Numbered from the stretch's first letter, positions 1 through 31,115 are shown. The stretch: 64,000 bases of DNA from Lophium mytilinum (GCA_010093605.1 MU004193.1:1-64000), one strand, 5' to 3'. Notes: generated from the letters alone by a model not told the origin. Numbers and translations are program-made.

Positions 1-19
1 TTATAAAATTATTCTACTA

Positions 20-1120: not shown

Positions 1121-1149
1121 TAGTGGCAGTAGTATTGTGAACTATTTCT

Positions 1150-3762: not shown

Positions 3763-4352
3763 AAGTATCTTCTTATTATTTATACGCGCGCATCTTTTTA
3801 GTAGTTATAGCTATTAGTAGTATAAAACTCTAATAGTTCTATATATAATATAACTCTATTAATATTTTTTTACTAATATCTTATCTTATTAATTATAACT
3901 ATTATCTATTATTCTTTTTATATATAGATAGTGCATTTAATATACTAGTATAGATTATACCTTTAGTATTATTTACATCTATCTCTTCTATTAAGGGATA
4001 CATATTCTAATTCTATAAAGATAGTAATTAGAACGCAGGCCCTATATACTAGTACGCCTAGTATCTTCTTATTATTTATGCGCATAAGTCTCTCTAGTAG
4101 TTATAGTTATTAGTAGTATAAAACTCTAATAGTTCTATATATAATATAACTCTATTAATATTTTTTTACTAATATCTTATCTTATTAATTATAACTATTA
4201 TCTATTATTCTTTTTATATATAGATAGTGTATTTAATATACTAGTATAGATTATACCTTTAGTATTATTTACATCTATCTCTTCTATTAAGGGATACGCA
4301 TTCTAATTCTATAAAGATAGTAATTAGAACGCAGGCCCTATACGCTAGTGCA
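3763..4352. repeat. Near-identical direct tandem duplication (2 x about 295 bp)
   Basis: About 3763-4055 and about 4060-4352 both run AGTATCTTCTTATTATTTAT...GTAATTAGAACGCAGGCCCTATA. Confidence 0.9.
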
Positions 4353-4599
4353 TCTACTAATAAAATAATTAAAATAGGCCTGCGTTTTAATTAATCTTAT
4401 ATATTAGCTTTTTTTCTTTATTAGTTTAATTTTATACTAGCCTATACTAATATATAAATAATTTACTATTATATCTTTTAACTAGTAATAATTAGAGTAT
4501 TTTAGTAAGAATTATAGTAGATCTAGACTAAAAGTAATATAAACTAATACTCTCTAGATAATAAAGCTTTAATATATACTTTAACTCTTTAAAATAAAG

Positions 4600-8153: not shown

Positions 8154-11041
8154 TCAACACATTCCACTGGTCCATGGTACACTGTAAAGGGTGTAGCTCC
8201 GCGTGCCTCCTACGCAGAAAAGGCAGCCAAATAAAAACTCTCACTACATCATTTGCCCATACCACATCCAGTAAATATTGTTGGCTCGTGTTCGGCCGGC
8301 GTCTGAGGCTTGAGAAGTGCAGCCCCATCCTTAATCTCTATCTTCTTGGTATTTGCGCTTCCATTAGGAATGCTACTAGGAGTGCTAGAAACATGCGCGG
8401 CATCACCAAAAACACCACCTGTATGACTGGCGCCCCGTGGCTGGTAGTACGGAGGCGCATCGTCGTAGAGTTCCAGCTCTCGAAGCTTGCCGAATTCCTG
8501 GAGAGCACCGTTGACCTCGCATGCATACTTGGACGTACCGAAACCATCGAAGCGAATCATCCATGCTGTACGAAATTAGCAAAGTCACCGATAACGCAGA
8601 TGTGAGATTGATTGTCAGCGAGGAAAATTGCATAGCTTACTGTTCGGGAATGGCACCATCTCGTCCCATTCTGCGGTAAGATACGTCTCCGTCTCCGGCC
8701 GCAAGACCTTGCTCGTATAGATCTTCTCGGCAATCTGTGGTTCACCGAGCATTTCGACCTCTTTCGAGATTCTTTGGATGCGCATCGGGGCCATGTAGTT
8801 GGTGTAACCCTCGGCGGAAGCATCAAGTTTGACTTTCTTCACTCGGCCCTGCGCATCGTGCCCCCGGCGTGCATTCCTCATTTGCGCGAAGATCTTGATC
8901 ATGGCTGTAACGCCCACCTCGGCGATGCGCTTGGGCTGGTAGTCGGCGAATTGGTCCATGGCGGTAGACTTGTGGTCTAAGAAGTCTGATTCTTTGGGCT
9001 CAACCCCAGCTTTTGCGGCAGCTTTCTAGACTGCGTCGTTGGCTTTGAACTGTTGAGACGTATCATTAGTCCTTTCGTGGTAGTTGAGGGTTGTTTTGAC
9101 GGCTGGGGTAGAACTTACAATGTCCAAGATGACCTTGTGATCTTTCTCGACCTTCAAATTGTTGCCTTCGCTGATTTTGTATTTTTTGATCTTGAGCGCT
9201 ACTCGAACCAAAGGAAGCTTAATGCTTCTACGTTCAACGTCCTCCACCAGTCCTCGGAGCTCTTGCTCGCTCTTCTCGTCGTCCTTGAATGCGAGCTCCT
9301 GCGCCTTCACCCATTTCGGCCTGCCGCTCAGTTGCTTGTGCGGGTTCTTTTGTGGATTCGCGAAGTCGTACATCTCTTCGAGAAATTTTTTGAGGGCAGA
9401 AGTGAACTATTTTGCGTTAGTATGTTAAGTCTTGGTAGGTTGTGATTCTTTGAAGCACTTACAGCGAGCACCGAATTGTAAGCAGCGTGAAGTCCCACGA
9501 AAAGCATTTTAGAAGCAGCAGCTGGAAGGCTCGGTTCATGCTTCAGCACTCGTTCTGCAACCTCGTAGCCGAGCTTAGTCATGGGATTGTCCTTCGGTGT
9601 GCCAAACCAGTATCTTGTTGCGCTCCATCGGTTCGCTTACCCAATGTTGCCACCAAGCACCAGATTGTACAGAGTCTCAATGGAAGTCTTGAATGCCTTG
9701 CGCCGTTTCAAGAGTTTGGTTTCATCGGCATTGTATGACAAGAAGACCTGACAATTTGAGATATGCTGATAGATCTCATTTTCGGAATGAGGCGCTTTCG
9801 GATACTTCGCACTTCGAATGAGATGGCCAAAACCAAGGAAGTCCGCAACATACTTAGTCACTACTGGAATGGCAAAACTGCAAAAGTGTCAGTCACAGGA
9901 GTGGAGCATGGGAGTGGAGCATGGGAGTGGAGCATGGGAGTGGAGCATGGGAGTGGAGCATGGGAGTGTCGACTTACTCTCTGGTGGCATCGATTTGCAA
10001 AGTCGAGCTGTTCATAGAGATGGATTCTTGTTTGATGATGTATCGCATCAGATCGGAAAAGTAACCCGTGATAGCCTCAGTGTCTTCCTTGAGCGCAGGT
10101 AGAATAGGCTTTGGCTCGGAATTGTGGGATGAGAACATTCCTTTAAAATCAAAGCATGTTGGGAAATTGGCAGAGTCCTTCAGTGCTGGGTGCACGAAAT
10201 TCGATGCATCCTTCAGTATAGCGGAGATCTTTTTGACCTCTGCCAGGTAAATTGGCTTCCATGGTTTCTGTGTTACCGAATCGCTAACGTCGAAGACAGG
10301 CGTGCCATATTGATCGGACGTCGTAGGCTTCTGCGACATCCTGAACTCCGGAGCATATCCTTGCTGCGCAGCAAATCTTGCATTCGTTTGTCTGGTGTAA
10401 AAGGGGTGGAAGAACTGGACGGAGTTGTATGGATACCATTCGGGAAATGCTCGCTGGATCAGTCGATGGAAAATAGAGCTCTTGCAGGTGTCGTTGTCAG
10501 GAGTGACCTCTTTCATACCCCAGGACGTCAAAGAGTTCGTGTTCCAGTCGGTTGTGTAGAAACGATCCGATCGTACAAGAGTGATAGCATCGGAGAAAAT
10601 TGCAGACCAGAGCGCAGAATCAACATCGCTAGGGCCGGGATCCACACCCATATTCGCGTCTGATTTGGAAAAGACACCTGGATAGAGTTCGATCTTATCT
10701 GCATGCTCATACAGGTCTCGCAACGCGTCTTGGATCTCCGCATTCTTGCTGACACTACCGAATGTTTGATGTCTTGGCGTGCCAAAGAAATCTCGGAAGT
10801 CATTGAGTGTGCCAATCTCCCACTTCCGGGCTTGTACAATGCCCAGGATCTCGACAGGCTTTAGGCACTTTGGTACGTTTCGAGGACCGAAGTTCGATAT
10901 TGGATCGTCCATTGCTTTCGTGAGGGCGTTAATCATATCTTGATCATCGAAAAGACCTGTGATGGGGTTGCGAGCGAAATCAAGCCCAGGTTCGCCATCA
11001 ATACCGAAACTGATTTCCCATGGCTGGTAATAGTAGCTCAT
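8154..11041 (-). pseudogene. Linoleate diol synthase / Ppo-like heme peroxidase-P450 fusion, apparently 5'-truncated (multi-exon)
   Basis: Peroxidase C-terminal motifs NFGPRNVP..VEILGI.QARKW..GTLNDFR.FFG..LYPG..FSDAITLVRSDRFYT.DW, followed by a degenerate P450-like region (FAQMRNARR...YLTAEW..MVPFP). No N-terminal peroxidase half (e.g. EFNLLYRFH) is visible upstream. Confidence 0.75.
9899..9967. repeat. 14-bp minisatellite (GTGGAGCATGGGAG-type) x about 5 inside an intron
   Basis: Directly visible between the splice donor at about 9976 and the acceptor at about 9865 of the LDS-like gene. Confidence 0.95.
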
Positions 11042-11465
11042 ACTTCGGCTTTGACCTTGACATCATGGATATCGGCGGTCGAAGTCCGGCATTCTTAAGC
11101 AGGGTAGCTCCTTCGGTAGTTAAATACTTCATCAAATCACTTGCGTGAATGACGAGGAGGTTCGCCGCAACTATTCCCGCGGGCTCGGCAACATCTGTAA
11201 CATCTGCCATCGACTCATACTTGAGCAACAAGTCTCCGAGCGGATCCTGCTTGATCCCGGATGCTGCGGCCATGCTGTCCATATGGCTGGTCGCAGTGAA
11301 GTCTTCGAGACTTTCCATGTCATCGGTGTCATCGCCAGACGCTTCTCGGTCGTAGATACATGACGTCGTCAGAGGCCGCCTGGCAAGAGTACAGGTGGCT
11401 CAAACCGAGTCAACCACGGGTTGGGCCAATTCCGAAGATAATTCGAAGCACTTCACACCGCGAGG

Positions 11466-12054: not shown

Positions 12055-14549
12055 TCAATCGCTCAAATCCCCCCAATACTCCTTCAAATCATCCATCCTC
12101 CACTTCGTCCCCCACCCCGTCTCATGCTCAATCCTCTCATAAGCTTCCAAAATCGCCTTGTGTTCACTCGGGTGACTCATGACCTGTCCCGCAATCCAAA
12201 GCGGCTGGATCGCATTCGTCCAGCATCCGTGATGCGTATTCGAAATCGAAATCGCGCATATCTGCCGCGCATGCCAGAGGATACTCCTCGGTTTCTTCAG
12301 CAATTTCGTGCTTCGGGGCCTCTTCTGCAGCATCAAGAGCGCCGCGGTGTGGTAAAGCTGGTTCCCCGATACTGCGGGACCATTCCCGAAGAGGAGCGTG
12401 GGAAAGGGGCGGTTCTCGTTAGTATCGGCGGGGATGCAGACGATGGCTTTCATCTCTTCGGGGCGCTCCGAGTACCAGTCTTCGATGTAGTTGAACAACT
12501 GCAGCCAACGCGATTCGTAAATGCTCTCAGAAACGGGGTTGGCGAAAAGATCGAGCGCTTCTGCCATTAGGAAGACGGCGAAGTTCGCGTAGGTGTCAAA
12601 GCCGGGACTGGATCGGAAGGCGTGGACGTCGTTTTCGATGTTGGTTCGAGATGCCCAGTGTCTAGCAGGAATCAAGGTCCTTTCGGAGGAGATGAGACCA
12701 CCGCAGACGTCCATTCGTGCGAAGCACCAGAAGAGAGCTTGCTCGACGCCTCCGACGCAGCCATTGATTCCTACAGCTTCCATCAGGGATGCACAGCCGT
12801 CTAAATGTCTTCGCCACTCTTTTGGAGAGCAGCTCAGCATCTCAAGGACGCAAAGTACTACACATGATGCAATGACGGCCGTGTTTCTTGTTTGAAGCTG
12901 AGGGAGCAGATGATGAATCGCTTCCTGGTAAAGCGCTAGACTTCTTGATGACTTTCTATTCATCTCTTTACGCTCCAACTGCCTAGCTGATAAGGCAAGA
13001 ATAGAGTACTTCAGATGCGTGTGCGATTTCGCCATTAGTGGAAGCATATGCTCGAAATGCCTTTGATTGTCGAATTTGTCGAGCCAAGGAGCCACCTCGT
13101 CGATCCAGTTCTTCCACAGCTCGTACTCCTCAAGAGGTGGCAGATCTACCGCTTTGTATATTCCATTTTGTGGCTGCAGATCCGGAAGTGTGGCAGAGGA
13201 ACGTCTGGAAGGATTCCATGTTGGAGCGCTGTGCGCATGAGTAACGCTTTCTAGACCCGGGGAGACGTGGCGTGATGGGGCATTGGAGCGAGCGGTGTTG
13301 ATGATGTGGGTTCTTAAAGTGCTATGTAGCTCTAGATATGTAGAGCCGGGTATAAATAGCCCGTCCTCGAATAAAGGATCTCCGTAGTCAAAGATGTCGG
13401 GCTCGATTGGAGTACCGTGGTGCTGAGCGTCTCCCAGTTGAATCGGAATATCAGATACATGAGGAGACGTCATGTGTGGCTGTGTGTCACGTAACGATAG
13501 TAGATTTGTCGCCGCCGTATGGGCGAAAGACTGGGAATTAGGAGACGCGGTGTATGCAAGCCGTTGCGAATTCGGAGACGTGGTTGAAGACTCCGCTTCA
13601 GTGGCAAACCCTGGAGATAGAAGTGTATTAGTGGGTTGAAATGGAGGAGATCCGAATACGATATCCGATGTCGTTGGATTTGAATAGGTTTGCTGTAACT
13701 CCGGCACCGGATAGTCAGCAGTAGACGCCGAAACACGCGCCTTTCTGGTGCTTTTTGTTGTTGGTCGTTCAAAGGCATGGTTCTGCGATGGTGGGGTGTC
13801 GGAAATGCGAAAAGTGTGACTTGATTCGATTGCTAGGTCCTCGTTCCAGTCGATGGCGGTCTCCAGGAAGCTATTCTCGCGCCAGTAGTCCCGAACAATC
13901 TCAGACGTAACGTCAAGAATCTAGATGCTGGTAAGTATTGTTCTGAGCGGCCGCAAGATACAGTGTCTCGTAATAGATGACCGTGCAGCTTCCCGCCAAA
14001 CAGACATCTGGGCCGATGTATCGCCCTTCAAGATCATATCCACCGCTCTGCCACTATCCGGAATGGCCTCTCGAGATTATCAACTGTTCTTTAGCTGCAC
14101 TTCCCTCAAGTTGGAGTTCTGAAGCAACTACGAGGCCCCACAGCATTGGCAGGAAAGTACACGGATACACATGACCAAAGGTCGAAGCTTGTGAAGAAAC
14201 GAAAAATCATCAACCAACATACCTCATACTGCCTCGGCCTCTTCCTCGCCCTCCCACACTTCATCGACGGATGATCGTCCTGGATGTTATGCGCATTCTC
14301 CGTCCTAAACGACAGCTGCGTCCGCCATTCACAAGCTTCCCCGCGCTTTTGACAATTGGAGCAGCACGGCTTGATCTCGTTGCCTACACAATCCTATAAG
14401 AAGACTGACGACTACACACCGAAGAAGTTGAACTCACACTTCTTCCTCCGCAGCCGACAATTCAAACACCCATTGCGCGTCCTAGTCCGTTTCTGTGGTC
14501 CGTCGTCCATGAGCTCTTCATCCGCGGGCGAGGCGGGGCCGGCTGCCAT
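12055..14549 (-). CDS. Zn(II)2Cys6 transcription factor with fungal-specific C-terminal TF domain (multi-exon)
   Basis: Exon 1 MAAGPASP..KRTRTRNGCLNCRLRRKKC, intron, then NEIKPCCSNCQKRGEACEW. The large last exon has APWLDKFD..HF...ALSARQL..WRRHLDG..FWCFARMD. Confidence 0.92.
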
Positions 14550-15099
14550 ACTAATCCCTCAGTCACCGATGTTGGCGCGAGAATGTAGAGAGGAGGAGCA
14601 TTGTTTTCGGCGAGATAGAAGGTAACGGGAAGAGAGCGGAGGTCACGCAGGTAATCTGGGGTGCCACGAGGTGTGGAGAAAAAACGCCACGAAATGCGGG
14701 CTACGGTAGCCGCACTCGGCCGCGTCTCGGGATTACCGAGACGTGAGGTCTGGGACTGGAATTCACTTTTATATGAGTTGCTAGTGATATCAAAATGGTT
14801 TGAGATGAATTGTGGGTACATAGAAGACCTTGAAGCGTGGAGGACGAGGTCACGTGATAAGCAGCTTTGAGATGCCATTCTAGTTCGTAATTTCCTTCAC
14901 GCACATAATCTACTCCGATGAAATTCTGATTCACGCATCTACTAGTATTGAAGCGAACCGATATGCATGATTGAATGTAGAAAACCGGCTATTCACATAA
15001 AGCCGACCATATATACATATATACATCCCATCCATCATCCTCTTCACTCCAAGAGCCCCACCCCATCACTTCCCCACAATCTTAGCCTTATAGCAAAAT

Positions 15100-16872
15100 C
15101 TAATTAAACTTGATCTCCTCCACCTTCTCCGCGTTCTTTTCCTTCTTCCCCTCCAGACTCAAATCACTCGAATGTCCACTCTCCTCGCTTCCACCCATCG
15201 ACGTCTTCCAATGCATGATAACCTTCCCACCTGTGAACAGTTTATCAATTTGCTCGAGCGTCAGGTTCTGCGTCTCCGGGTAGAAGAAGTAGATCAAAGG
15301 CAAGAAGCAGAAGTTGAAGACGGAGAAGTAAATGTAAGTTTTCCAGGCGATGGATCTGATGCTGACGGGTGTGATTTCGACGACGAGGAAGGTGAAGATC
15401 CCTGCAATTACGATATTAGCATTTACAGTTTTTTTTGGGAGTGATGAGAGGTAAAATGGGGCGTTGCGTACAGTTCGAAGCAGTAGCAAGCGCCGCAGCT
15501 CGCGTGCGGATGGCAAGCGGTGCGTATTCCGCTGGTAGCAACCAGGGGATAGCGAGGAGTCCGACGGCGAAGAAGAAGTTGAAGAGGAAGAGCATGATGA
15601 TGGCTACGATGCCCGCACTTGAGCTGCCGTTCGCGACGGTGCCGGCGAGGATGGCCATGCAGGCGCCTTGACCAGCTGCAGCGAAGAGCATCAATTTGCG
15701 GCGACCGAGGCGGTCGATGATCCAGATTGGGATAAGAGAGGAAAGGAAGTATGCGACGCCTAAGATAGGATTAGCTCTGCATGAGAAGTGCGTGATGAAC
15801 GAGGGTTAGCTTACCATTGAAACCGGCAACTAGGAGGGCGGTGTTATGTGCCAGACCCACAGACTGCTCGAATATAACCGGTGCGTAGTAAGTTATGAGG
15901 TTTATGCCCGATAGCTGCTGCATAAACTGTCCGCCGATACCAAGGAGGGTGCGGTAAAGGAACTTCTGCTCCCCATTCTTCATCATGGTCTTGTAGCTTC
16001 CCGCCGCAGCAGCTTGGCGTTCCTCGACAATCGCATCCTGGATGAGTTTGATCTCGATATTGAGCGTGTCATCCTGCTCTGTGATCTCTTTGGCGTTGTT
16101 TTCCAATGCCCAGAGAATGTGTCGTGCTTCATCGTGTCGGTCGTGGGCAATAAGCCATCGTGGTGACTCTGGCAGAACACTGATACCCGCGAGGGTAAAG
16201 AGCGCGAAGAGAATTTGAAGCGCCAAGGGGAAGCGGAATTGGGCTTCGCTGGATACGTAGCTCATGCCGTAGTCGACCCAATAGGCCGTCATGACGCCGA
16301 AGATGTTGATGGCGAGTTCGATTGCGAGGCCCTTGCCACGCTTGTGGGCTTTCATCAATTCGGAGTGCCATACAGCTGGTATGGTCAGTATGGCAATGAA
16401 AAGCGGACTGTGGTGTGTATCGACGTACGGATAGTGCTGGTGTTCATCCCGTTACCGAGACCAGCTACGATACGACCAACGATAATTTGAGGGATGGTGC
16501 TCGCTGAAGCTTGGAGAGCGGCTCCGATGCTCAGAACAATAGAACCAATGATGATGCACCATCTCCGCCCCATTTTTTCTCCGAACAGCATGCAGAAGAT
16601 GGCACCAAAGAAGCAGCCCTATAAATGTTGGTTCGAGAAAGTATGTTTCATACCAGGGGACTTACGATTTCGTAGATTGCAACCACAGTTCCTTGGAGCG
16701 ATGAGCTTCCATGACCGCTATCGGTAGTATCAATCTGGGGAAAGGTGTTCGTGAATGCTACGCCCGTGAGCAGACCAGACATGACACCTTGATCATAACC
16801 GAATAGGAGAAACCCTGAGCCCGCAGTGGCTGTGATGGCCCAGCTAAGGGCCCGACCCGTGAGGATGGTCAT
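15100..16872 (-). CDS. MFS sugar porter, STL1-like polyol/sugar:H+ symporter (about 4 introns)
   Basis: Motifs LLFGYDQGVMSG, GRIVAGLGNGMNT, LPESPRWL, QQLSGINLITYY, PAEYAPLAIR, YPET. Confidence 0.93.
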
Positions 16873-17642
16873 GATGGCGGAGGATGAAGGGTGATGATAT
16901 TGAATTAAAAGAGGAAGCTCGAGGCTGTGAAAAGCAAAGAGATTCCGGGAACTTGGATACTTTAAGTAGAAACCTTACTGAAGTCACGATATGCCCGCGA
17001 CTTGCTAACGTGCGCCTTAAACGTGGAGACCCCAGGCGCAAAGTCATGATGCTCCATGGGGAATCACAATGCGGAGGGACTACGGGGCGAAAAAACTCGA
17101 AACGAGCACTAAACCAGGCCACGAACATGCCATAGCCGGCATTGGAGGCAGCTGCAAGCGCTTTCCGGTCCACGGTGCTTCGTCGGTGCCGTTGTTCAAG
17201 GACATGGTTTGCAGGCGATGATGATATTCTCTGCATGACTCGCGATGCGGAAGGACGTGCCCGGCGGCTAGTCGGACCTTTTTGCGAACCGGTGCCCCAA
17301 GTCGGCCGCTGCTTCGCATTGCCTATTTCGTCAAACGGCAGCTCTAACGCTTAATCGGCCGCAACCCCCTGCGGCATGCCCGCTCCGTTCTCGCTGTCGA
17401 CGAAACACCCGTGACATTTCCACTTTGGGTCACGATAGTCTTCAATAAGTCATCATTGATGGAAAATTGAATCACACGATGACTTGGGACGGCAGAAGCT
17501 CCGAACGCTTGCGGCTTCTAGACCCACGGCCGCGCAGTCCTTTTGGACCATCGTGGAACGGCGTCAAGGTCAAAATATCTACTCGACCGCCTGACCCGCG
17601 CTGAGGCTGTAATCAATATCATACTCTCGATCAATCTTCAAC

Positions 17643-19728
17643 ATGTCTCTTGGCAAACACTTCATCAACGATGTTACGAACCCAGTGGAACGAGCCTTGC
17701 GGAGTATGCTTCTGCATGACACAGCTCTACGCTTGATTGAATCAGAAAAGGGTGCGAAAACATCATCATATATAGCAATTTTATTCCCAGCTATCTTCTA
17801 ACTCCGATAAAGTTCTGTATCGTCAACAATCGAATGGCTCCTCCAAAGTACTCCTTCTTTCTGGAGGAGGAGCGGGCCATGAACCCGCGCACGCAGGCTT
17901 CCTCGGTGAAGGGATGCTTGATATTTGCGTCTCCGGCAACACCTTCGCATCGCCATCAGCATCACAGGTCTTTGCAGGCGTCAAGTCGTTACCTTCACCT
18001 CAAGGGTAGGCGGGGAAATGCGACCTCTCGCGCGATTGACTGACTGTCTTTAGAACCCTCATGATCGTAAAGAACTACACTGGCGACAAGCTTAACTTTG
18101 GTCTCGCTGCTGAGAAAGCGAAAGCAATCGGCAAACGCGTCAATGTCGTGTTCGTTGGCGACGATGTAGCTGTAGAAGGGAATGGTTTGGTCGGAAGACG
18201 TGGATTGGCGGGTGTAGCCTTTGTGCATAAAGTTGCTGGAGCACTTGCGAGCTCTGGGTTCGTCTGCCATCTTTCTTCTCTGATGTCGTATTGCTGTGTT
18301 ATCTTCGACTGATCTGACCTCTTCTAGTGCGGACCTTGACTCTACCACAGCAATCGCTCAAAAGGTGGCAGACCAAATGGCGACCGTCGGAGTGAGTCTT
18401 GACCGATGCAGCGTACCGCGAAGAGGAGAACAAGAGCCACTTCCTTTCGATCAACTCGAATACGGCATGGGCATCCACAATGAACCAGGAGTGCGCAGGG
18501 CTAGGATTCCGTCGCTATCAGAAACAGTAACACGAGTCCTACAAATGCTCACCAAGAAACGGAGTATAAGCTGGACACCAACTACAACGCAATGTCTTGC
18601 TGTAATGGTGAACAACCTTGGCGGACTCAGCGTGCTAGAGTTGAACGTTGTTACGCAAGAAGTGGTACGCCAGCTGAGAAAGGATGGCCTCCAGATTCGA
18701 AGACTCCTGATGGGAACTTTTGTCAGCTCTTTGAACGGTCCTGGATTCTCGGTAACATTGCTCGAAGTGGATCCCCAAATCGAGATGCTCTTAGATGCAC
18801 CGACTACAGCACCTGCATGGCCGAAGATAATCAGCCCTATCAGCATCAGTGCTGCAGATGACCAAATCATTCACGAGGCCGATACCGAGGCGGTTCCGGT
18901 GTCAGAAGGAACTCCGTTACTACCAGGTAAGGATATCTATCGCCCCTAAGCGATATGCGTTAACTGATTGTTAGTGTCTTCCGCTCTAATTACCACCATA
19001 ATACAATCAATCGTTTCCTCCGTCTTCACTTCCGAACCCTTAATAACGCACTACGACACCATCGCCGGCGACGGCGACTGCGGCGAAACTCTCCTAAATG
19101 GGGCGAACGGTACTTCTCCTTCCCATTCTCCTTTCATCAGTCTTGATTCTAACACCCCCCAGCCCTCCTCACCGAGTTCAGCAACCCAACCTCTCCTACC
19201 CTCTCCCTTCCCACCGTCTTTCACACCATCGCCACCGTAATCGAACGCAGCATGGGCGGCACCTCCGGCGCCATCTACGCCATCTTCCTGAACGCTGTCT
19301 CCACCGCCCTCGCTAAAACCAGCACTTCTACCGACTTTAGAAAGACCGCACCCCCGTCTCCTCCTATGTCACCATCCACTGGCCCTCAGTCCCAGCTCTC
19401 TTACTCGATCATCATCGCTTCGGCGTTCCGGTCTGGGCTTACAGAACTCTGTAAATATACCTCCGCGCGCAAGGGGCATCGCACACTGATGGACGCGCTC
19501 ATCCCATTCGTGGATGTATTCGAAGAGAGTGGCGATTTAATCAGAGCCGGCAATGCGGCGAGGGAGGGTGCAGAGGGCACTCGGAGCATGAAAGCACTCT
19601 TAGGCCGGGCAAGTTATGTGGGTGAAAGTGCTTTCGAAGGTGAAAAGGGGGGTATTCCAGATCCCGGAGCATTAGGGGTTGTGAGTGTGGTTGATGGAGT
19701 ATGTAAAGGGTTAGCTACTGAATCATAG
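17643..19728 (+). CDS. Dihydroxyacetone/triose kinase family protein (DhaK-DhaL fusion), about 5 introns
   Basis: Motifs [87 protein letters not shown]. Confidence 0.93.
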
Positions 19729-20242
19729 GGAATGGGGAATGGAGATCTGGATTATAGGGGGTCCGAAGCTTGGTATATATTATCATAGAACATGTTCAAG
19801 AGGGTATTTTATTCGTCCGATTCATAACCTACACGGAACTAGTGACGATTGACTTGTTATTGAGAGCAGCTTTTGAGTGAGATACTCGTGAATATCACAT
19901 AGCTTCATTGATTCATATTGTACAAAGTCCTCTAACATGCCATGAGAAATTGGACAGGATGTCGAATCATTGATTCCACTAATCAGGAAACCTGGGAAAC
20001 GTGTTACGGTCTTACCCATCACTCTTCTCTGCAAAACACGCTGCACTGATAGCACGTGACCTTCGACCGAGCACTTCGCAAACTTCGCTCGCGATAACCT
20101 TCAAGCAAGATCTGGTTATCCACGCATCCGAAATAAGCATCTCCTCACTAAACCACTGCTTCACATCTCTACTCACGACAATACAGCACATCTAGAAATT
20201 CCATCAAGTCTATAACGCCATCTACCCCTTCCCCTTTCCAAT

Positions 20243-21251
20243 CTACGCGCTAGCACAATGTCCCCCATCCACCCTCAAATCCGCCCCCGTCATAAACGCA
20301 CTCCCCTCCGACAACAAAAACACCGCCGGCGCCTTGAAATCCTCCGGCGCGCCCAACCTCCCTAGCAGCGCCCCCGCCATCCATATCTTCTCCACCTCCG
20401 GCTCCGCCTTCAGCAAATCATCCGTCATAGCCGTCCGAATATACCCGGGGGAGATCGTATTCACGCGGATACCGTACTGTCCCCACTCCTGCGCGACGGA
20501 GCGGCACATCTGGTGCACAGCCGCTTTCGAGGTGTTGTAAGCGGTGCAAGTAAGCCCCTACCCAGAGAAACCACATTAGTCTTCGATTCCCAAAACCTCC
20601 TCTGGGTGGGTGGATGGGTGCGTGAGTAGGGTGGGAAATAAAACTAGAAAACCAAAAAAACCCAAAACATACCCTATTCGCCACCTGCCCGCTCATACTC
20701 GCAATCATCACCACACTCCCCCTTACCCCCCTCTCCCTCATCACCCCGGCCGCCAACTTCGCCGTCAAGAAAGTCCCCACCACATTCACCCTCAGTATCC
20801 GCTCAAAATCCGCCGCCGGGTACTCCAACGCGGGAATCTTCTGCTGGATCCCCGCGCACGCCACCGCGCCCCAGAACACGCTGCCCGCGCGCTCCGCGCC
20901 CGCCGCGATCTCGGCAAACACGGCGGCGAGCGCGGGCTCGTTGGTGATGTCGCAGTGGTGGTAGGTGCAGGTGAGGTGGGCGGGCTTGGCGAGGGCGAGC
21001 AGGGCGCTCCAGTCGGGTTCGGAGGGGGAGGGCAGGATGTCGATGCAGGCGACGTGGCCGCCGGCTTCGAGGACGGCGGCGGCGAGGGTGATGCCCAGGC
21101 CGCGGCCGGCGCCGGTGATGATGGTGGTTTTGTGGGCGAGGGAGAAGAGGGAGGGGGAGGGGCTGGCGGCGGGGGCGGTCGCGGTGGTGAGGGCGGATTC
21201 GGGGTTGGTGGGGGGGAGGGCGAGGTCGGGGAGGATGGCGCTGGGGGACAT
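20243..21251 (-). CDS. Short-chain dehydrogenase/reductase, D-arabinitol 2-dehydrogenase-like polyol dehydrogenase (1 intron)
   Basis: TGAGRGLG Rossmann motif, ASMSG, YNTSK catalytic motif just after the intron, IRVNTISPGY, DLRVDGG. Confidence 0.92.
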
Positions 21252-21897
21252 TTTGGGGGAGGAGGGGTGGGTGTGAGGTTTGAGGTGTGAAGTATGAAGT
21301 TTGGAGATATGAGGGTTGAGGGTTGAAAGCTAGAGGAGATTTGGAGTTGAACAAGATGTTGTGGCGAAGAGTGAAAGAAAGTGGAAATAGTACCCCTCGA
21401 TGAGAAAGAAAAGAAACCCACACTTCTTACCCGCGTCTACTTACCGGGCTTACCAGAGAATTTCCAGGAACCTGGAGCAAGGGTCTTTGCGTTCCTAGGA
21501 AGTCTGCCCATGCCATGTGGAGTAGCTCCACCTGGAGAAGTTTGAGGAGAAAGCGCGTGCCGCGTGACGGGAACGCGACGTCGCCGGGAGCGCTTATGAT
21601 GTCTACTTTGATATCTTCGAAATTGTTAGTGTATAGCCAATCCGTGGTTCTAGAAAGAAGGGACGCTAGCTCGAAGCCGAGATGGGATACTCGAAGCGCT
21701 CCTCGCACCCTACGGCGACATTCTCGGCATACCTTCCCCGCCGCCCCACCACGATCTGCTCCAGCTTCCGTAGGGGTCATGATGTTTTGAAGAGGGAAGC
21801 TATGAGAGCTTGTCAACATGTTGAAAAGAAACTATCCCATGCAATTCCCGGGTTCTGCACTCAGTTTCCTCCTCATTCCTCGCATTATCCATTCGCC

Positions 21898-24193
21898 ATG
21901 GCTCCTTCTGCAATTCCCGTCGAGACGTTGAATCATCTTCCTCTTAAGACTGTCAACGGCAAGTCTGCTGCGGTAGATGATATTATAATTGAAGATGTAG
22001 AAAAGACGAATCTGGTGCTACGCACCTTCCGCTCCTTCATCGTGGATCTGTGTGAGCAGTTCAAAGGCGGACATCCAGGGTAGGTAGCTATCCAAAGCTC
22101 CTAGCATTTGAAAATAATAGTTCCAACCAGGAGTGCAATGGGAATGGCAGCCATCGGCGTCGCCCTCTGGAAATACATCATGAAATACTCACCCGAGAAC
22201 CCTTCTTTCTTCAACCGGGACCGCTTCGTCTTATCCAATGGCCACACATCTATCTTCCAATACATGTTCCTCCATCTTACGGGCTACAAGGACATGACTG
22301 TAGACCAACTGAAAACATACCACTCCACTCGGACGGACTCGCTATGTCCTGGTCACCCCGAGATCGAGCACGAAGGTATCGAAGTCACCACCGGCCCATT
22401 GGGTCAAGGCATCTCGAATGCCGTCGGTCTCGCGATGGCAACGAAGCATCTCGGGGCCGTATACAACAAGCCTGGGTTCTCGCTGGTCGACAACATGACT
22501 TGGTGTATGATCGGTGATGCTTGCCTCCAGGAGGGCGTAGCACTCGAATCTATTCAGCTAGCTGGTCACTGGAAGCTGAACAACCTGACCGTCATCTATG
22601 ACAACAACCAGGTCACTTGCGATGGGTCTGCCGATATTGCGAATAGTGCTGAAGATGTCAATGCTAAGATGCGGGCTTGCGGGTGGAACGTTATCGATAT
22701 CTTAGATGGGAACCACGATGTGGAGGCTATTGTCAAGGCTTTGGTTGCCGCACGATCGAGCAAGGACAAGCCGACATTCGTCAACGTACGGACCATAATA
22801 GGAATTGGTAGCCAGGTTGCGGGCGATGCGAAAGCTCACGGTGCTGCTCTTGGCCCGGCTGATGTTGCGCATGTGAAGAAGCAGAATGGGATGAATCCGG
22901 ACGAGCACTTCGTCATCTCCGATGAGGTCTATGCCTTCTTCCGGGAAACGAAGAGTCGAGGTCGCCAGTTGGAGAAGGAATGGAATGAACTAGTGTCAGC
23001 GTATGCGGCCGAGTATCCTGAACTCCACGCCGAATTTCAGATGAGGGTAAAGGGTGAGACGGAGGACTGGATGAAGCTCATTCCCTCGAAAGAAGAGCTA
23101 CCTACCACACCTACAGCGACTCGAAAGTCAGCGGGGCTAGTTTGCAACCCGCTTGCTGCAAAGCTGCCGAGCCTGATGGTCGGAACCGCAGATTTGTCTC
23201 CTTCCGTGAACACGGCATGGAAGGACAAGGTCGACTTCCAAAACGTCAGTACAACTCCTCCTACTAACCGCATACCTCGAAACTAATCCCCCACAGCCCG
23301 ACTTCCGCTCCGCCTGCGGCCTCAACGGCGACTACACCGGCCGCTACATCCACTGGGGCATCCGCGAACACGCCATGGCCTCGATCAGTAACGGCCTCGC
23401 CGCCTTCAGCAAAGGCACCATCCTCCCCATCACCTCCACCTTCTTCATGTTCTACATCTACGCCGCGCCCGGTATCCGCATGGGCGCCCTCCAACACCTC
23501 CAAACCATCCACATCGCCACCCACGACTCCATCGGCACCGGCGAAGACGGCCCCACCCACCAGCCCATCGCCCTCGCCTCCCTCTACCGCGCCATGCCCA
23601 ACCTCCTCTACATCCGCCCCTGCGACAGCGAAGAAACCGCCGGCGCGATGATCGCCGCGCTGAACGCGAAGAACACCCCTTCTATTCTATCGCTTTCGCG
23701 CCAAAACGTCCCCCAGTACCCCTCGTCGTCCTCCCGCGAAGGCGTCCAGCGCGGCGCCTACGTCTTCGTCGAAGAGCCCAACGCAGACGTCACCCTCATC
23801 GGCGTCGGCGCTGAAATGGTCTTCGCGATGAAGACGCGCGAGCTGCTCGCCTCGAACCACAACATCCGCGCGCGCGTCGTCAGCTTCCCGTGCCAGCGGC
23901 TGTTCGAGGCGCAGCCGGTCGAGTATAAGCGGGAGGTGCTGCAGTACCGCTCGAACGCGCCGCGGGTGGTGGTTGAGGCGTATGCGGTGAATGGGTGGGA
24001 GCGGTATGCGGATGCGGGGATTAGCATGAGTTCGTTTGGGAAGAGCTTGCCTGGGGCGGCGGCGTATAAGTATTTTGGGTTTGATGAGGAGAGCATTGCG
24101 CCGAGGGTGCTGGAGTTGGTGGAGGAGGTGAGGAGGGAGGGGGTGGGGTGTTTGAGGGGGGAGTTTAGGGATTTGAATGGCGGGATGAAGTAG
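21898..24193 (+). CDS. Transketolase family, dihydroxyacetone synthase (DHAS)-type (2 introns)
   Basis: Motifs GGHPG, DRFVLSNGH, SLCPGHPEIEH..EVTTGPLGQG, ThDP motif GDACLQEG...YDNNQV, THDSIGTGEDGPTHQP. The C-terminus GGMK has no PTS1. Confidence 0.95.
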
Positions 24194-24868: not shown

Positions 24869-27512
24869 ATGGCGAACCACATCGAGTGCACTCGTCTAGG
24901 GAGGCCTCAGTGTCTCTCTCAGTCATCCAGATCCATCTTGCTCCATCTCCTCCGCAATTTGAAGCTGTGGAATCCCCGCGACATCCCTCACGTGGACCGC
25001 CTTCTAGGCTCGAGAATCAATCGCCTATTCATTACAAGTGCGACTTATACTCCGGGAGCCCCTCCCATCAAGATTAGCTTCGCGCGCAAGTATGTGGGAG
25101 GATAACGCCCAGATTATGAGGTGCGGTATGCCCAGTCAAGAGATAGCCTGGTCGGATTGGCCGTACTGCTCTACATGCAGATTTGAGAGTCTATCCAGAG
25201 GCGGGCCCAGCGAGATGGTTTTCTGTTGTGAATGTGGGTCTGGCCCTCAGCTTATATACGTCAATCCCGCATGTTACAACTGCCGCCATACCTTCACGTG
25301 GGACAATAATTCGAAAGCTACATTACGTGTAAGAGAAAAAGAAAGCCCCTCATTGACATTCAATGAACTTCTCTTTCGACGAGCGGCAGATCCCATAACT
25401 ACCGAGAATGATACATCTTCATGTATCTTATCACCTCCCCATGATCCTTTGGCACTTCCAGCAGCTGAACGTCTGGCGCTCCCAGCGCCTAGAACTCCGC
25501 TTGATACTCTTGAGCAGCTTCTAGGGCCGTTCCCATCAAACCCCGATTTACCGGCTGGGGTCTACATTGCGCGACAGAAAAGCCGAGAAAGATCCCCTCA
25601 AGGCTTGCGACTTTTTGAAGAACATATAAACAAAAGCGTTAATGGAACCGACTGGCCGAACTACGCATCACTCTGGGACTGTGAACTATTGGACGAAACC
25701 GCAAACGCGCGAAGACCGAGTCCAATTTCACGCGTTCATCAGGAACCAACGCCCTCCGACAGACTTCGCGGATTGCATCACACATCGAAGGTCGCAGCAG
25801 AAGACTCGGAGAGAGCCAATGAGCAGGGCAGTCTACCGCTCAAGACCACATCTCACGATAGCTCACGGGAGGTATACAGCAGTTCGGACAATTCGCCGCC
25901 CGCTTCTGGCAGTCCTACAGCTACCCGAACCAGCGACACGGAATACGACTACTCCACCGAAACCGAGACAAGTCCCAGCACGATAGCAGATTCTCAATCT
26001 GGACCCTCAACCATTTCATGTCTGGTCCGAAACTTCGTTGATCGGGTTATGAATGATATCCACTTCTTTTTTGACGTCGAGTCTGGGATCATTCAATGCA
26101 CTAATGGATCAAACCACCATACTTCAACCACACAGAGCCAAAATCCTTCCAGTCATGATAGTCCGAAAGGTGGCCAGCCCGAGGAAGAAAACAAGCGACA
26201 ACAGGATGCAGATGGTAGCAAGGGCCCACCACAAGACCACAGCGAAGACGATCATGATGATGATAGAGGTAGAAAGCGGCGAAAGCTTAGCAAAAGCAAA
26301 CGACCGGAGAAATCCACGAGACGGCTTGCTTGTCACTATTTCAAACGCGATCGGGAAAGGTATAGAGAGTGTCGCGCCTGTGCGGGTCCGGGATGGTTCA
26401 ACATCCATCACGTAAAGTATGCTCTCCGCAACAATTTTTTATTGGAGTTTTGTCAACTCTTGTCTGATAGAATGTAGAGACCATCTTTACCGGAATCACC
26501 AAGTTCGTCCTTGTCCAATATGTTACTTAGATATGAAGACGGACGAGGCTTACGAAGCCCATATACGTGCACGAACGTGCGAAGAGCAGCCACGAAATTC
26601 TTTCGAAGGCATAGATAGAGCCAAAAAGGCGAAACTGGAAAGCCGAATGAGCGGGAAGCCACCTGTCGAAAAGTGGAATGCTATCTACCGGATCTTGTTT
26701 CCTAATGACCTACACATACCAAGTCCTTGTAAGAAATAATGTAACTTTTAGGTACTACACTCTAGCTAACTTCTCATTATCTAGTCTACGACCATGATGA
26801 TAACGCACTGAGTGCAGTGGACCCTCGTTCTCGCTTTCACGATTATTGCGAGATCGAACTTCCGCGGAGAGTCCGCGCAAAGCTCGAGAACAATCTCAAA
26901 CAACGGTACCGCCAAATCTACGCTGAAATTGGCAGTCAAATCGAGTCTACCATCCGAGAATGCTACGGTGATGTAGTGTCGGCATTTCAGCTGTCTACTG
27001 CCGCCGAGAGCGCACCTAAAGCATCAATGCCCGCCGAAGAGAATATCCTTGTTGACACCGATGAGCAATGTGCGTTTACGACAACCGAACAGTGTTTGAA
27101 TCAAAGCTCTTTCACTCCTCCAGACCTATCACTCGAATTTTTGGATCTGGCTAGCTTCGATATTCATACACCGTCTACGAATGTGCACGACCAAACGAAC
27201 CAAGACAACATGAACTACTTCACTGAGCTGACACTCAGCGCTGACCCTTCCCCCGGCGGGCTCAGTTTCCCGTCTATCTGCCCTGACGTATTTCTCTCTT
27301 CCCCCCAGAACCCGTGGGAGCATGGTTTCATCGACTCTACTACGACATCTTCAGACCCACTGCTTGACGAGCAGAACGAGGAGCAGTTGATTGAGCTTCC
27401 TGGTGCCGCAGTTGTCAAGATCATCCCCGAAGTTAGGCTGCCAAACCCATCTCAGACCCAGGGAATGTACTCGGACCTCACAGATTTGCTACAGCATGAA
27501 CCGTATATGTAG
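24869..27512 (+). CDS. Fungal C2H2-like finger protein, paralog 1 (N-terminal CCECG..P.CYNC.H motif); start uncertain
   Basis: Core LACHYFKRD..CRAC.GPGW.NIHHVK|DHLYRNH...CPICY...H..C..EKW..IYRILFP...PSP. Introns at about 25090-25180, 26418-26477 and 26730-26784 keep the frame. Confidence 0.75.
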
Positions 27513-29457
27513 TCTGCTACAGCTTTTCACAATGGAATCTATCCAGGAATACTGAAAATATCTGCTTCTTCCTAACTTGGGCTTGGACAGGGAGCTTCAA
27601 TAACAGCTTGATACTCGTTGAAGGACTTCAGATCGTGTACGGACTTCGTTTGAAGATTGAGAAGTCACTGTTGAACGCAGAGTGATTACTTACCAGCAAA
27701 AGTCGGAGTCACGCGTCACTGGTCTCAACGCTTGAGAAGTCGAAAAGCGTTGGCCAGATTAATCTGAGGTCAGATCTGCATTCACTGATTAGTGCCCGCC
27801 TTCGTATGCGCTTTAGTTTCATCATCGAAGACTCTTGATAGGTGGTTAGAATGGGTTGCCATTGCTGTTTTGATCTGAGGATGGCTCCCGGTACTTGAAC
27901 CTTCGGTATGTATTTGCCAGAGAGTAGCACGTGACTGGACAAACACCTTACCACCTCGTTCAGACCATAAGAGCTTAGTCTAGTTTGAGAAGTTCAGATG
28001 GGCGGAATTTTGGATTGCTATCGTCTGGATTCTGTTTCTTGTCCGGGCCTATAAACTAGCATGCAGCCTAACGAGATACACGCTTGCGAAACGGTGGGGC
28101 GTACGGTGGTTTGCGTATATGCTTAATTCTACGCCGCTGCGGAGTATAACCCAACACGGCGCTAAACTCAAGCGGATATTCGCAAACCTGCTGCCTGCCC
28201 TGCTGCGCAAAGTTTCACGCATCTGCGTATTCTTCGCTCATGCCACGTCTTTTTAATTAAGACCACTGGGCACCTCTTTTACTGTTCTTGAGATTTCACC
28301 GCTTGTGCCTCCCCCTATCTTGGATCTTAGACCCGTCCAATCCCCATCCAGAGAGTGATCGACACGCTAGGTGTGAGACTTCTTCTTGGTGCCCGCAAAG
28401 GTCCCTCGGCCTTCCAGCCTCGAGTAACCCTCCAGTGGCACTTGAAAGCCAGGAAAGGATCAGCTTTCCGCGCGCCTTACTGAATAGATATAGCCTCGCC
28501 ATGGGACGATGCCCGCATAGGCAGGATTTGGACCCAAGGCGATCGACATTCCATCGACGCTGCCTCCCAGGAATAGGACGAGGATGCCGGCCACGAGAAT
28601 ATGGATTTGCCAAGAGGATGATACCGTTACCAGCACGGTACCGGAACCGAGGACGTGTGAAGAGGATGACGCGCACAGCCGTGCCCGTGGTGTTAGCGCA
28701 AGGGCCCCTCACCCCTTCTTTGAAGCTATCTTTCTCGCAGATAACAGCACATCTTGGGGATTTACGGGCGACTTATGCCGCAAGGCCTCCACAGCCACCC
28801 TAGGAACGATGCTTACGAAGAGCTTCTGGGAGAGATTTGCATCAACTCCTGATTGATGATTTTCTGCCAGGCGATCCTGGAGTCGACTCCTGGCCAAGGG
28901 ATCCCCCAGCCGAGGATCTACCCATGGCCCATTCCCACGAAAGGGTTTCATTTCTACATGTCCCAGGTGAGAGCGGCAAGCTCCAGCAGCTTGAGGATAG
29001 GACTCCTACCCTCAAGGTCGCTTCAATGTTAGAGTACACCTTCCCTCGCATTGAAATGTACCGAGAGGCTCATCTCGTTTCCTATCTCGCTTCTTCGCAT
29101 CGCAGTCGTGTTACTGCTGATGACCTGGGCAACCGCTCAGCCGTTCTTGGAAACCCGGATGTGTTGGCGCTTAGCTGCTTATTGTCAATCAGCTGCTTAG
29201 AAAATATCAGGAAAGGTGCATTTTCCCCTCCGATATCAAACGCAACATTTTTATGGTGCTCTATTCCCACTTACTGTGCCCATTGCTCATTGTCTAATCT
29301 AATGGCTCCAGCCCCAAGAGATGCTTTTCATCGTCTACAGACATCCGCAAATCCGACATTTCCAATCCATGGAAGTCCGCGGTGCTTTAGTCTTCAACAG
29401 GCAATCGCAACACACCAAAGAACTGGCTCGCTCGTCAGAGTTTAAGATCTTATAGGC

Positions 29458-31115
29458 GTGTCTCGCCAAGTAAGACTCGGACAGATACCAGAGCATGGTT
29501 TGCCAGATGTTGACGAGCAGAGCTCGTTTTCTAGCCTCTCTGACACTGGTACCCATCGACTAGACGTGGGCCTGGAAGAAAGAGCGTTCTCTCTGAGCCC
29601 ACGAATGTCGAAATCTGGCTTCGAAAGCGAGATGCCGTCTGTGCAAGGAAAGCCGACGAAACTAGAACAGCCATTACATCGACCAAGCGGCGCAACCTCC
29701 AAGATCGGCCCACGGGAATTCAATGCCTTCGAGCCCTCAAGGTATATCTATAGCAACGATGTTCTAATAGCTAGTAGCGGCTTGACAGATGTTTCCAAAA
29801 ATAGGAGCGAAACACCCGAGAATGTAGAGGTGGGATATCCGGACGAACGTTCGAATATCTCATATAGAGCTTGTAGTGTTGATTTTAGGATCATGAAAGC
29901 CCAATGGCTCTTCGATGACAGGTCGGGGGTTATCCAAAGTACGAATGGCTCTCACACCAGCACCAGCACATCCAGTGCCGCTCAGTTTACAAGTGAGAAC
30001 AAGAAACGAAAACGGCAGAACAGACACGGAGGACGATCGGGCGAAAACGATGAAGATGACATCGCAGATAATAATGATGATAACGGTAATAATAGGAGAA
30101 ATTTGGACAGCGGTAAACGCCCGCGGGGGAGTAAGAAGAGGTTCGCGTGTCCGTTTTTCAAACGAGATCCAGAAAAGCACATGGGGCGTCGCTCTTGCAC
30201 GGGCCCAGGATACTCGGGAATTCATCAGCTGAAGTGAGTTGCGGCAAGGTCACTCGCGCTGCAGAACTGATACCAACACGGTTCTAGAGAACATCTTTAC
30301 CGAAACCACGAAGTGCGACCTTGTCCAATATGCTATGCGGATATGAAGACGGACGAGGCTCTAGAGTTGCACGTGCGGTCACAAGTTTGTGAAAGACGGG
30401 AAGCACCCCCTTGTGAAGGTATTAATCGACCAATCAAGTCAAGATTGGAGAACCGGAAGGGATGGAGTAAGAAATCTGATATCGAAAAGTGGGAGCCTAT
30501 TTACCGGATACTGTTTCCGAACGACGAGGCCCTTGCTATGCCTAGTCCATGTAGGTGTTCACAAAATCCGATACCGACGCATTGCAGTCGAACTCACGAT
30601 CCGTGTGCCTAGTCTACGAGGACGATGAGCTACCCTTACCAGGCCTTCTCTCTGCGTTCGAGGAATATTGTCGACGCGAGCTTCCGCGGAGCGTCCGGAT
30701 GGAACTGGACTCGAAATCTAGGCGCGGCGACGACATCAACAGCGAAATTGAGACCCTAGTGCGACATTGCTACGACGGAATAGTCACCACTTTCAAAGGA
30801 TCAGGGAGATCGAAAACTGCGCAAGCCGTCTCGACCCTTGCTGAACCTGAAACGTGTGTCCTAAGTCAGTCCGACGAAAGCACCTCCGTTGGATCGTCGA
30901 CGCACGATGCTCTGGAAAATATCCTGGGCCAAGTTTCGTACGTTACACCGGATCTTACTTTTGATGGCTTCAATACAAGCGGCCTAGAGCCCTCCACGCA
31001 ATCCTTCGACTACGGTACCAAAACTAGTCAAGAAGGTTCCGATCAACCTGACTACTTTGGAGAGACTTTCGACTTCATGAGAATCCTTGACTTCCCGTTT
31101 GACCCTCATCCTTGA
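29458..31115 (+). CDS. Fungal C2H2-like finger protein, paralog 2 (5' exons unresolved, possibly degenerate)
   Basis: Core FACPFFKRDPEKH..SCTGPGYSGIHQLK|EHLYRNH..CPICY..EKWEPIYRILFP..PSP|YE..F..YCRRELPR. Intron positions match paralogs 1 and 3. Confidence 0.7.

What the first reader, a model, noticed from the sequence alone, without database searches (positions are those of the whole stretch)
12055..24193. Five-gene catabolic cluster: TF + polyol porter + DAK kinase + SDR + DHAS-type transketolase
Seen: five contiguous genes, with porter/DAK and SDR/transketolase as divergent pairs. The transketolase resembles methylotroph DHAS but lacks PTS1, and no alcohol oxidase lies nearby. Established: bacterial D-apiose catabolism uses a kinase and a transketolase on apulose to give DHAP; Yarrowia erythritol catabolism uses a dehydrogenase, a DAK-family kinase and isomerases. 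Inference: polyol uptake, oxidation to a ketose by the SDR, transketolase cleavage and triose phosphorylation. A branched ketose such as apulose (from apiose/apiitol) would release dihydroxyacetone or DHAP, which explains the DHAS-DAK pairing and makes this a candidate fungal branched-sugar pathway. Tetritol/pentitol use or formaldehyde assimilation are alternatives.
Basis: partly seen in the sequence, partly recalled or inferred. Interest (0 to 1): 0.7.

Follow-up and report, generated by a model that had tools for sequence, protein, structure and literature searches.

The report
Conserved fungal sugar-alcohol breakdown gene cluster
Five neighbouring genes in this mould (a regulator, a sugar transporter, a dehydrogenase, an extra transketolase and a kinase) recur together in many other moulds and probably break down a sugar alcohol that is not yet identified; the suggested link to the plant sugar apiose is possible but has no direct support.

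Summary
There are five intact genes (Zn2Cys6/Fungal_trans_2 regulator, porter, DAK, SDR, second transketolase) in two divergent pairs, in a fungus labelled Lophium mytilinum. RNA-like contigs confirm six introns. The module is conserved. Of 20 metagenome locus groups with usable flanks, the SDR sits with the regulator in 14, the porter in 12, the transketolase in 10 and the cluster-type DAK in 1. Locus tags and 13 merged DAK-regulator models link the DAK in sequenced fungi. An AAGCGC motif is enriched in SDR promoters and in both window promoters, which suggests co-regulation. Best reading: polyol uptake, NAD-linked oxidation to a ketose, transketolase transfer of two carbons, then triose phosphorylation. 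The substrate is unproven; a linear C4-C5 polyol is likeliest. Apiose is weaker: no apiosidase or recurring aldose reductase was found, and recalled SDR stereochemistry disfavours D-apiitol. Methanol use is unlikely, because the transketolase lacks PTS1 while the unlinked alcohol oxidase has one. Ten literature searches found no description of the cluster. This scan earlier noted sister modules with a LAD-like dehydrogenase on other DNA.

The parts
12055..14549 (-). Zn2Cys6 + Fungal_trans_2 transcription factor, 712 aa; exons 14549-14438, 14383-14223, 13920-12055
   Evidence: both introns (54 and 302 nt) joined in an RNA-like contig; orthologues 43-56% identical in 13 merged DAK models
15100..16872 (-). 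Sugar porter (PF00083), 515 aa, 5 exons; polyol specificity inferred, not shown
   Evidence: all four introns joined in RNA-like contigs; orthologues (HSPs at least 55% identical) beside the SDR in 17 of 52 groups
16873..17642 (.). Divergent porter/DAK promoter with palindromic AAGCGCTT at 17156-17163
17643..19728 (+). DAK-family kinase (Dak1+Dak2), 601 aa, 6 exons; its own clade, apart from the genome's other two DAKs
   Evidence: tree support 99, quick tree
20243..21251 (-). Classical SDR, 297 aa, D-arabinitol 2-dehydrogenase-like by automatic names; TGxGRGLG, Asp71 (NAD preference, recalled rule), Y200-N-T-S-K204
21252..21897 (.). Divergent SDR/transketolase promoter with AAGCGC at 21551 and 21694 and its reverse complement at 21590
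21898..24193 (+). Second, DHAS-like transketolase, 730 aa, 3 exons, no PTS1; catalytic and phosphate-binding residues all kept

Best explanation
A self-regulated catabolic module for a linear sugar alcohol, most likely C4-C5. The porter imports the polyol and the NAD-preferring SDR oxidises C2 to a ketose. The extra cytosolic transketolase then takes the ketose, probably unphosphorylated, as C2 donor and passes the unit to glyceraldehyde 3-phosphate or another aldose phosphate, feeding the pentose phosphate pathway. The DAK phosphorylates the released triose, or the tetrulose directly, and the regulator switches the genes on through AAGCGC sites. The single scheme that uses all five genes is D-arabitol -> D-xylulose -> xylulose 5-phosphate + D-glyceraldehyde -> glyceraldehyde 3-phosphate. 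Shown: genes, splicing of two of them, conservation, motif enrichment, residue conservation. Inferred: every substrate, the direction of flux and the regulator's binding site. My odds: module-level reading about 0.8; linear C4-C5 polyol about 0.5; D-arabitol specifically about 0.2.
For: Synteny: 80 SDR loci collapse to 52 groups. With at least 1.5 kb on both sides (20 groups): regulator 14, porter 12, transketolase 10, at least one partner 16. With at least 7 kb on both sides (10 groups): 9, 7, 7 and 10 (L018's regulator, at 38% identity, fell under the cut and was not counted). L044 holds all five genes. Neighbouring locus tags: Chaetomium olivicolor 5132/5133/5135, Pseudogymnoascus verrucosus 01891/01890, Arthrobotrys megalospora 005143/005145, Cosmosporella 071100/071140. 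Thirteen DAK hits are gene models merged with this regulator's orthologue (43-56% identical, against 22-30% for the C18 regulator). AAGCGC occurs in 28 of 38 SDR promoters (10.4 expected; 0 of 200 shuffles reach the site count). The window's two promoters, outside the discovery set, hold 5 counts against 1.0 (1 of 200 shuffles; the palindrome counts twice). The nearest solved SDRs include polyol and hexonate dehydrogenases. D-arabitol 2-dehydrogenase orthologues are mainly NAD-dependent, with possible 4-dehydrogenase side activity (PMC10398940, passages). A. niger DakA is assigned both EC 2.7.1.28 and 2.7.1.29 (PMC9781776 supplement). Two other DAK types lie near the SDR, in L087 and L071, which suggests the product is a DAK substrate.
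Against: There is no substrate evidence of any kind. The nearest solved SDRs are only about 30-34% identical. The cluster-type DAK occurs in 1 of 20 well-flanked groups and 0 of 10 long ones; the transketolase is missing from 3 of those 10. A xylulose route duplicates xylulokinase, reported in all species studied (PMC6231085, passage); this genome has FGGY kinases of untyped specificity. The transketolase keeps its whole phosphate site, and free ketoses are poor donors for canonical transketolases (recalled). The genome has two other D-arabitol-dehydrogenase-like SDRs (44% and 43-52% identical). Held-out promoter support is weak: 12 sites against 4.4, but 9 come from three related loci, and 5 of 11 regions have none. 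The regulator's own promoter in the window has none.
Confidence: 0.5

Rival explanations
1. Branched-sugar route: apiose -> apiitol (by an unlinked reductase) -> apulose (SDR) -> dihydroxyacetone + xylulose 5-phosphate (transketolase) -> DHAP (DAK).
For: It uses all five genes and explains why the DAK is optional, since any DAK handles dihydroxyacetone (inference). Bacteria have a transketolase route for apiose (PMC13753588, passages). Clade-invariant changes near the thiamine site (Cys224 for Ile191, Ala191 for Gly158 in yeast numbering, recalled) could widen the pocket. Apulose C3 has no stereocentre, so it fits either C3 preference (chemistry).
Against: No apiosidase, aldose reductase or isomerase among the Pfam hits of 147 of 210 selected flanking ORFs. 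No GH140 in the genome (other apiosidase families not tested). D-apiitol has the C2 configuration used by LAD/XDH-type enzymes, opposite to that used by mannitol, galactitol, D-arabitol 2- and gluconate 5-dehydrogenases (recalled; soft at 30-34% identity). That would favour the sister LAD-like/TktC module for apiose instead. The search for 'apiitol' listed 6 papers, none on fungal catabolism by title or abstract start.
Confidence: 0.12
2. Tetritol route of the erythritol/D-threitol type: SDR gives erythrulose, the DAK phosphorylates it, unlinked isomerases give erythrose 4-phosphate, and the extra transketolase only raises capacity for it. This overlaps with the best explanation and differs in the order of kinase and transketolase.
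For: Yarrowia uses a dehydrogenase, a kinase, TPI-like and RpiB isomerases and a Zn2Cys6 regulator in one cluster (PMC5992420 and PMC11394100, passages). This genome has a second TIM and an RpiB on C19. The transketolase phosphate site is intact.
Against: No TIM or RpiB in the cluster or among the flank hits. The DAK is often absent, though this route needs it. The Euf1 core AAGCCG was not among the top-ranked k-mers; AAGCGC was.
Confidence: 0.2
3. Formaldehyde (methanol) or glycerol/dihydroxyacetone handling: DHAS fixes formaldehyde, the DAK phosphorylates dihydroxyacetone, and SDR and porter shuttle glycerol.
For: 25 of the 120 listed homologues carry a DHAS or formaldehyde-transketolase name (automatic names). 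A. niger models assign this reaction to the paralogues (PMC6231085). The genome has an alcohol oxidase (E 1e-151 to 5HSA). The best PDB match of the DAK is a 608-aa dihydroxyacetone kinase, but that entry is also the best match of the C1 DAK.
Against: The alcohol oxidase is unlinked and ends ARL, a PTS1, while the transketolase has none; 1 of 120 homologues does. No oxidase or formaldehyde-route gene among the flank hits. The most constant partners are SDR, regulator and porter.
Confidence: 0.12
4. Another polyol or rare sugar (hexitol, heptitol, 2-C-methylerythritol), or two loosely joined units (SDR-regulator-porter, and transketolase-DAK) serving related substrates.
For: Gene order and content vary; L062-L064 and L059 add a LAD-like dehydrogenase and a second porter, L095 a second SDR type, L071 a mutarotase and a hydroxyacid dehydrogenase.
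Against: The SDR and transketolase share a promoter in the window and in several loci, and the motif occurs at both divergent promoters.
Confidence: 0.16

Closest known systems
Xylulose-monophosphate pathway of methylotrophic yeasts (DHAS + DAK + alcohol oxidase)
   Same: DHAS-named transketolase clade and a DAK; an alcohol oxidase exists in the genome.
   Different: No PTS1 on the transketolase; oxidase unlinked; SDR, porter and regulator added. No methylotroph DHAS sequence was in hand, so kinship rests on source names and PMC6231085.
Yarrowia lipolytica erythritol utilisation cluster (EUF1, EYD1, EYK1, TPI-like, RpiB)
   Same: Clustered dehydrogenase, kinase and Zn2Cys6 regulator, with bidirectional promoters.
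   Different: A transketolase and porter in place of two isomerases; different enriched promoter word; DAK optional.
Bacterial D-apiose transketolase route (Carter et al. 2018; recalled, and seen only as cited in PMC13753588)
   Same: A ketose is cut by a transketolase, and a kinase is involved.
   Different: Isomerase, FGGY kinase and split transketolase there (recalled); here an SDR, a DAK and a single-chain fungal enzyme with no prokaryotic relative above 43% among the best 80 of 600 capped matches.
Aspergillus niger TktC (NRRL3_00895) / NRRL3_10165, and the LadA-like NRRL3_00896
   Same: Same extra-transketolase family. The window enzyme is probably of the NRRL3_10165 type, inferred because the A. 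fumigatus Af293 and Talaromyces orthologues are filed there.
   Different: TktC is numbered next to a LAD-like dehydrogenase, not this SDR. Both are annotated as DHAS in network models; I saw no assay in the passages read.
Fungal D-arabinitol 2-dehydrogenase family
   Same: SDR motifs, Asp at the cofactor site, automatic cluster name.
   Different: A distinct clade with an invariant C-terminal DGGHCASA, lacking the long N-terminal extension of the genome's two nearer paralogues; specificity untested.

Membership tests
Methylotrophic XuMP pathway | Transketolase in a clade apart from the housekeeping enzyme, named DHAS | tested here: inconclusive
   Separate clade, support 100 in a quick tree; 25 of 120 names; no characterised DHAS in the tree
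Methylotrophic XuMP pathway | Peroxisomal signal on DHAS (recalled) | tested here: not met
   Ends GGMK; PTS1-like 1 of 120, PTS2-like 0 of 120
Methylotrophic XuMP pathway | Alcohol oxidase available | tested here: met
   On C9, unlinked, ends ARL
Methylotrophic XuMP pathway | Formaldehyde as acceptor; methanol induction | not testable with these tools
   Needs assay
Yarrowia erythritol cluster | Dehydrogenase + DAK-family kinase + Zn2Cys6 regulator clustered | tested here: met
   orthology to EYD1/EYK1/EUF1 not tested, sequences not in hand
Yarrowia erythritol cluster | TPI-like and RpiB isomerases in the cluster | tested here: not met
   Both on C19, about 185 kb apart, unlinked to any DAK; none in flank hits
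Yarrowia erythritol cluster | Euf1 motif A core AAGCCG | tested here: inconclusive
   Not among the top 22 7-mers or 8-mers; no dedicated count made
Bacterial apiose transketolase route | Apiose isomerase and FGGY apulose kinase (recalled) | tested here: not met
   Neither in the cluster nor in flank hits; FGGY genes lie on C23 and C3
Bacterial apiose transketolase route | Split AptAB-type transketolase (recalled) | tested here: not met
   Single 730-aa chain; a split-chain entry scores 112 bits against 341 for yeast transketolase
Bacterial apiose transketolase route | Cleavage of apulose or its phosphate | not testable with these tools
   Needs assay
Transketolase (active enzyme) | Catalytic His/Asp/Glu and phosphate-binding Arg/Ser/His | tested here: met
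   H59, H99, H136, H297, H520, D516, E456, R392, S419, H508, R567 at 93-100% in 119 clade members (roles recalled, alignment to yeast)
D-arabinitol 2-dehydrogenase | NAD-type Asp after strand 2 and YxxxK | tested here: met
   Asp motif in 118 of 120 hits; Y200/K204 nearly invariant in 25 aligned
D-arabinitol 2-dehydrogenase | D-arabitol to D-ribulose activity | not testable with these tools
   Needs assay

The most novel reading that the evidence does not exclude
The cluster is a first eukaryotic route for a branched sugar. A cytosolic DHAS-like transketolase cleaves unphosphorylated apulose (or a related branched ketose) to dihydroxyacetone, and this catabolic job is the ancestral role from which methylotrophic DHAS arose. 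The broader version, a transketolase whose native donor is any free ketose, I put at about 0.4.
Probability: 0.12. Interest if true: 0.8.

Novelty: new variant of a known kind. Interest (0 to 1): 0.45.

Why it matters
Many moulds carry an extra transketolase that network models label dihydroxyacetone synthase, although they are not methylotrophs. The conserved SDR, porter, regulator and optional DAK give that enzyme a testable context: one regulator deletion plus a polyol panel should reveal the substrate. The result would fill a gap in fungal sugar catabolism, could supply a kinase-independent entry for ketoses and an inducible promoter, and bears on where yeast methanol assimilation came from.

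Tried and rejected
Accession-level synteny through cluster members could not be obtained, so same-contig pairs rest on names, locus tags and contig lengths. The prokaryotic scan with the transketolase alignment gave only canonical enzymes at 37-43% (best 80 of 600 capped matches), so no operon clue. All-against-all ORF clustering of flanks was mostly lineage synteny and was cut in the output. CGG dyad scans showed nothing (largest positive z 1.8). The review statement that A. niger tktB is XlnR-dependent (PMC8140973, passage) was dropped, because PMC9781776 gives tktB as NRRL3_05756, a different orthology row. A. niger tktC is flat (19.5-35.9) on eight monosaccharides and NRRL3_10165 has no data; no polyol was among them. 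No RNA holder was listed on record. Run X1 is only guessed to be RNA, and its lack of cover over most of DAK, SDR and transketolase is no evidence. The AlphaFold models (SDR pLDDT 72.7, transketolase 68.1) were too rough for pocket analysis. Foldseek on the SDR repeated the sequence hits, and the transketolase model was not searched. The Atlas search on a porter exon gave only generic porter clusters. Both trees are quick trees without bootstrap, so no transfer or origin is claimed. Earlier-finding look-ups by sequence, by relatives and with a third word set returned nothing.
Full report
Observation. The region holds five intact genes with canonical introns, typed by Pfam: a Zn2Cys6/Fungal_trans_2 regulator, a sugar porter, a Dak1-Dak2 kinase, a classical SDR and a three-domain transketolase. 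Porter/DAK and SDR/transketolase are divergent pairs. Identical database proteins are labelled Lophium mytilinum. Contigs of one run guessed to be RNA join both regulator introns and all four porter introns at the modelled places.

Genome context. The genome has one other transketolase, on C18, which groups with canonical enzymes. It has two other DAKs: one alone on C1, and one on C18 with a class II aldolase, two SDRs, a regulator and an MFS gene. The window DAK falls in its own clade (support 99). An alcohol oxidase ending in ARL is on C9, a second TIM and an RpiB are on C19, and FGGY kinases are on C23 and C3. No GH140 apiosidase was found. So the cluster adds paralogues to a genome that already has the housekeeping functions.

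Conservation. The transketolase has relatives at 69-85% across several classes of filamentous ascomycetes (best 120 of 7944). In the hit lists of 120 each, the same organism and contig length occur for transketolase and SDR in 10 organisms, for transketolase and DAK in 14, and for all three in 4 (read by hand). Some of these contigs are short (35-72 kb) and some are chromosome-sized, where this says little. Four of these organisms show neighbouring locus tags. Thirteen DAK hits are models merged with this regulator's orthologue. A metagenome scan with the SDR alignment returned the best 80 of 86 loci, which collapse to 52 groups. Over all 52: transketolase 16, porter 17, regulator 21, cluster-type DAK 1, any partner 32; many contigs are too short to show a neighbour. 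Among 20 groups with at least 1.5 kb on both sides the counts are 10, 12, 14, 1 and 16. Among 10 groups with at least 7 kb they are 7, 7, 9, 0 and 10. L044 has all five genes. The scan was anchored on the SDR, so it does not count transketolases that lack one. Order varies, and the DAK is the least constant member. Pfam on 147 of 210 selected flanking ORFs from 30 loci showed no glycosidase, aldose reductase, isomerase or alcohol oxidase. Loci L037, L084, L085, L089 and L094 were not in that set; three of them share a GH3-like neighbour seen, which looks like lineage synteny but was not tested.

Co-regulation. AAGCGC emerged from 38 SDR promoters: 28 of 38 carry it against 10.4 expected, and 64 sites against 12.4. 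The window's two divergent promoters, not used for discovery, hold 5 counts (4 distinct places) against 1.0. Background tiles carry it in 17 of 65 (window) and 82 of 297 (metagenome loci). Held-out transketolase, porter and DAK promoters give 12 sites against 4.4, but 9 come from three related loci. That the cluster regulator binds the word is inference.

Enzymes. The transketolase keeps all catalytic and phosphate-binding residues, and differs from canonical enzymes at clade-invariant positions such as A191, Q194, C224 and Y124. It lacks PTS1, as do 119 of 120 homologues. The SDR has the NAD-type Asp (118 of 120 hits), and its nearest solved relatives include gluconate 5-, mannitol and galactitol dehydrogenases at about 30-34%. 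From recalled stereochemistry these, and D-arabitol 2-dehydrogenase, oxidise C2 of the configuration found in D-mannitol and D-arabitol, whereas D-apiitol has the opposite one. This is a soft argument, since enzymes of the other preference (xylitol and sorbitol dehydrogenases) also appear lower in the lists.

Mechanism. The anatomy fits uptake, oxidation to a ketose, C2 transfer and triose phosphorylation. That the DAK is often missing, and that other DAK types lie near the SDR in L087 and L071, suggests its substrate is one a general DAK can handle. D-arabitol through D-xylulose and D-glyceraldehyde uses all five genes but duplicates xylulokinase. Tetritols fit with unlinked isomerases. Apulose fits the logic but not the SDR's likely stereochemistry. 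Methanol fits poorly because oxidase and transketolase would be in different compartments. None of this is shown.

Literature. Ten searches found no description of this cluster; the library lacks most subscription journals. I read passages of PMC6231085 (supplement hits and one part), PMC1794588, PMC9781776 (supplement hits), PMC8140973, PMC5992420, PMC13753588, PMC11394100 and PMC10398940; none in full. Carter et al. 2018 is recalled and seen only as a citation. Transcriptome supplements of other papers, which I did not search, may hold induction data for these genes. Two earlier notes of this scan describe a sister module with a LAD-like dehydrogenase. Loci L059 and L062-L064 show such a dehydrogenase beside this SDR, and A. 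niger numbers TktC next to a LadA-like gene.

Verdict. This is a real, widespread and apparently undescribed catabolic module built from known families. Its substrate is open and directly testable. It is a new variant of a known kind; interest 0.45.

Noticed in passing
G000:C18:282000-295100 (L013 2284 to L014 5089): A second catabolic cluster in the same genome: class II aldolase, SDR, Fungal_trans_2 regulator, divergent DAK, MFS transporter and a second SDR; a candidate ketose-1-phosphate/aldolase route.
   Followed up: partly
window 1-5600 and about 61500-64000: Very AT-rich ends (GC 0.20-0.30 and 0.32-0.40) with RIP-like dinucleotide indices (TpA/ApT 1.76 and 1.86); the window starts at base 1 of its contig.
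   Followed up: partly
window about 8250-11400, - strand: Haem peroxidase-domain gene (An_peroxidase E 1e-8) resembling a fatty-acid dioxygenase, in several ORF pieces; a short tandem repeat lies near 9850-9950. Whether it is intact was not checked.
   Followed up: no
window 25008-27512, 29446-31112, 32511-35108, + strand: Apparently three related genes in tandem; the first two share an RRLACHYFKRD / RFACPFFKRD-type motif and had no Pfam hit.
   Followed up: no
L071 321-3989: A divergent DAK that seems to have only the Dak1 domain, an L-rhamnose mutarotase-family gene and a 3-hydroxyisobutyrate-dehydrogenase-family gene beside the regulator and SDR.
   Followed up: partly
L062-L064 1-13800; L059: Composite locus: DHAS-like transketolase, a different porter, two hydrolases and a LAD-like zinc dehydrogenase divergent from the SDR, linking this module to the LAD-like/TktC module.
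   Followed up: partly
P0364, P0368: Deeper relatives of this transketolase clade that lack the Asp equivalent to D516 (Asn, Cys), so probably altered acceptor specificity.
   Followed up: no
window 17752-17830: The database DAK model (583 aa) skips the conserved LLLSGGG stretch; the 601-aa model restores it, but this intron has no RNA support here.
   Followed up: partly
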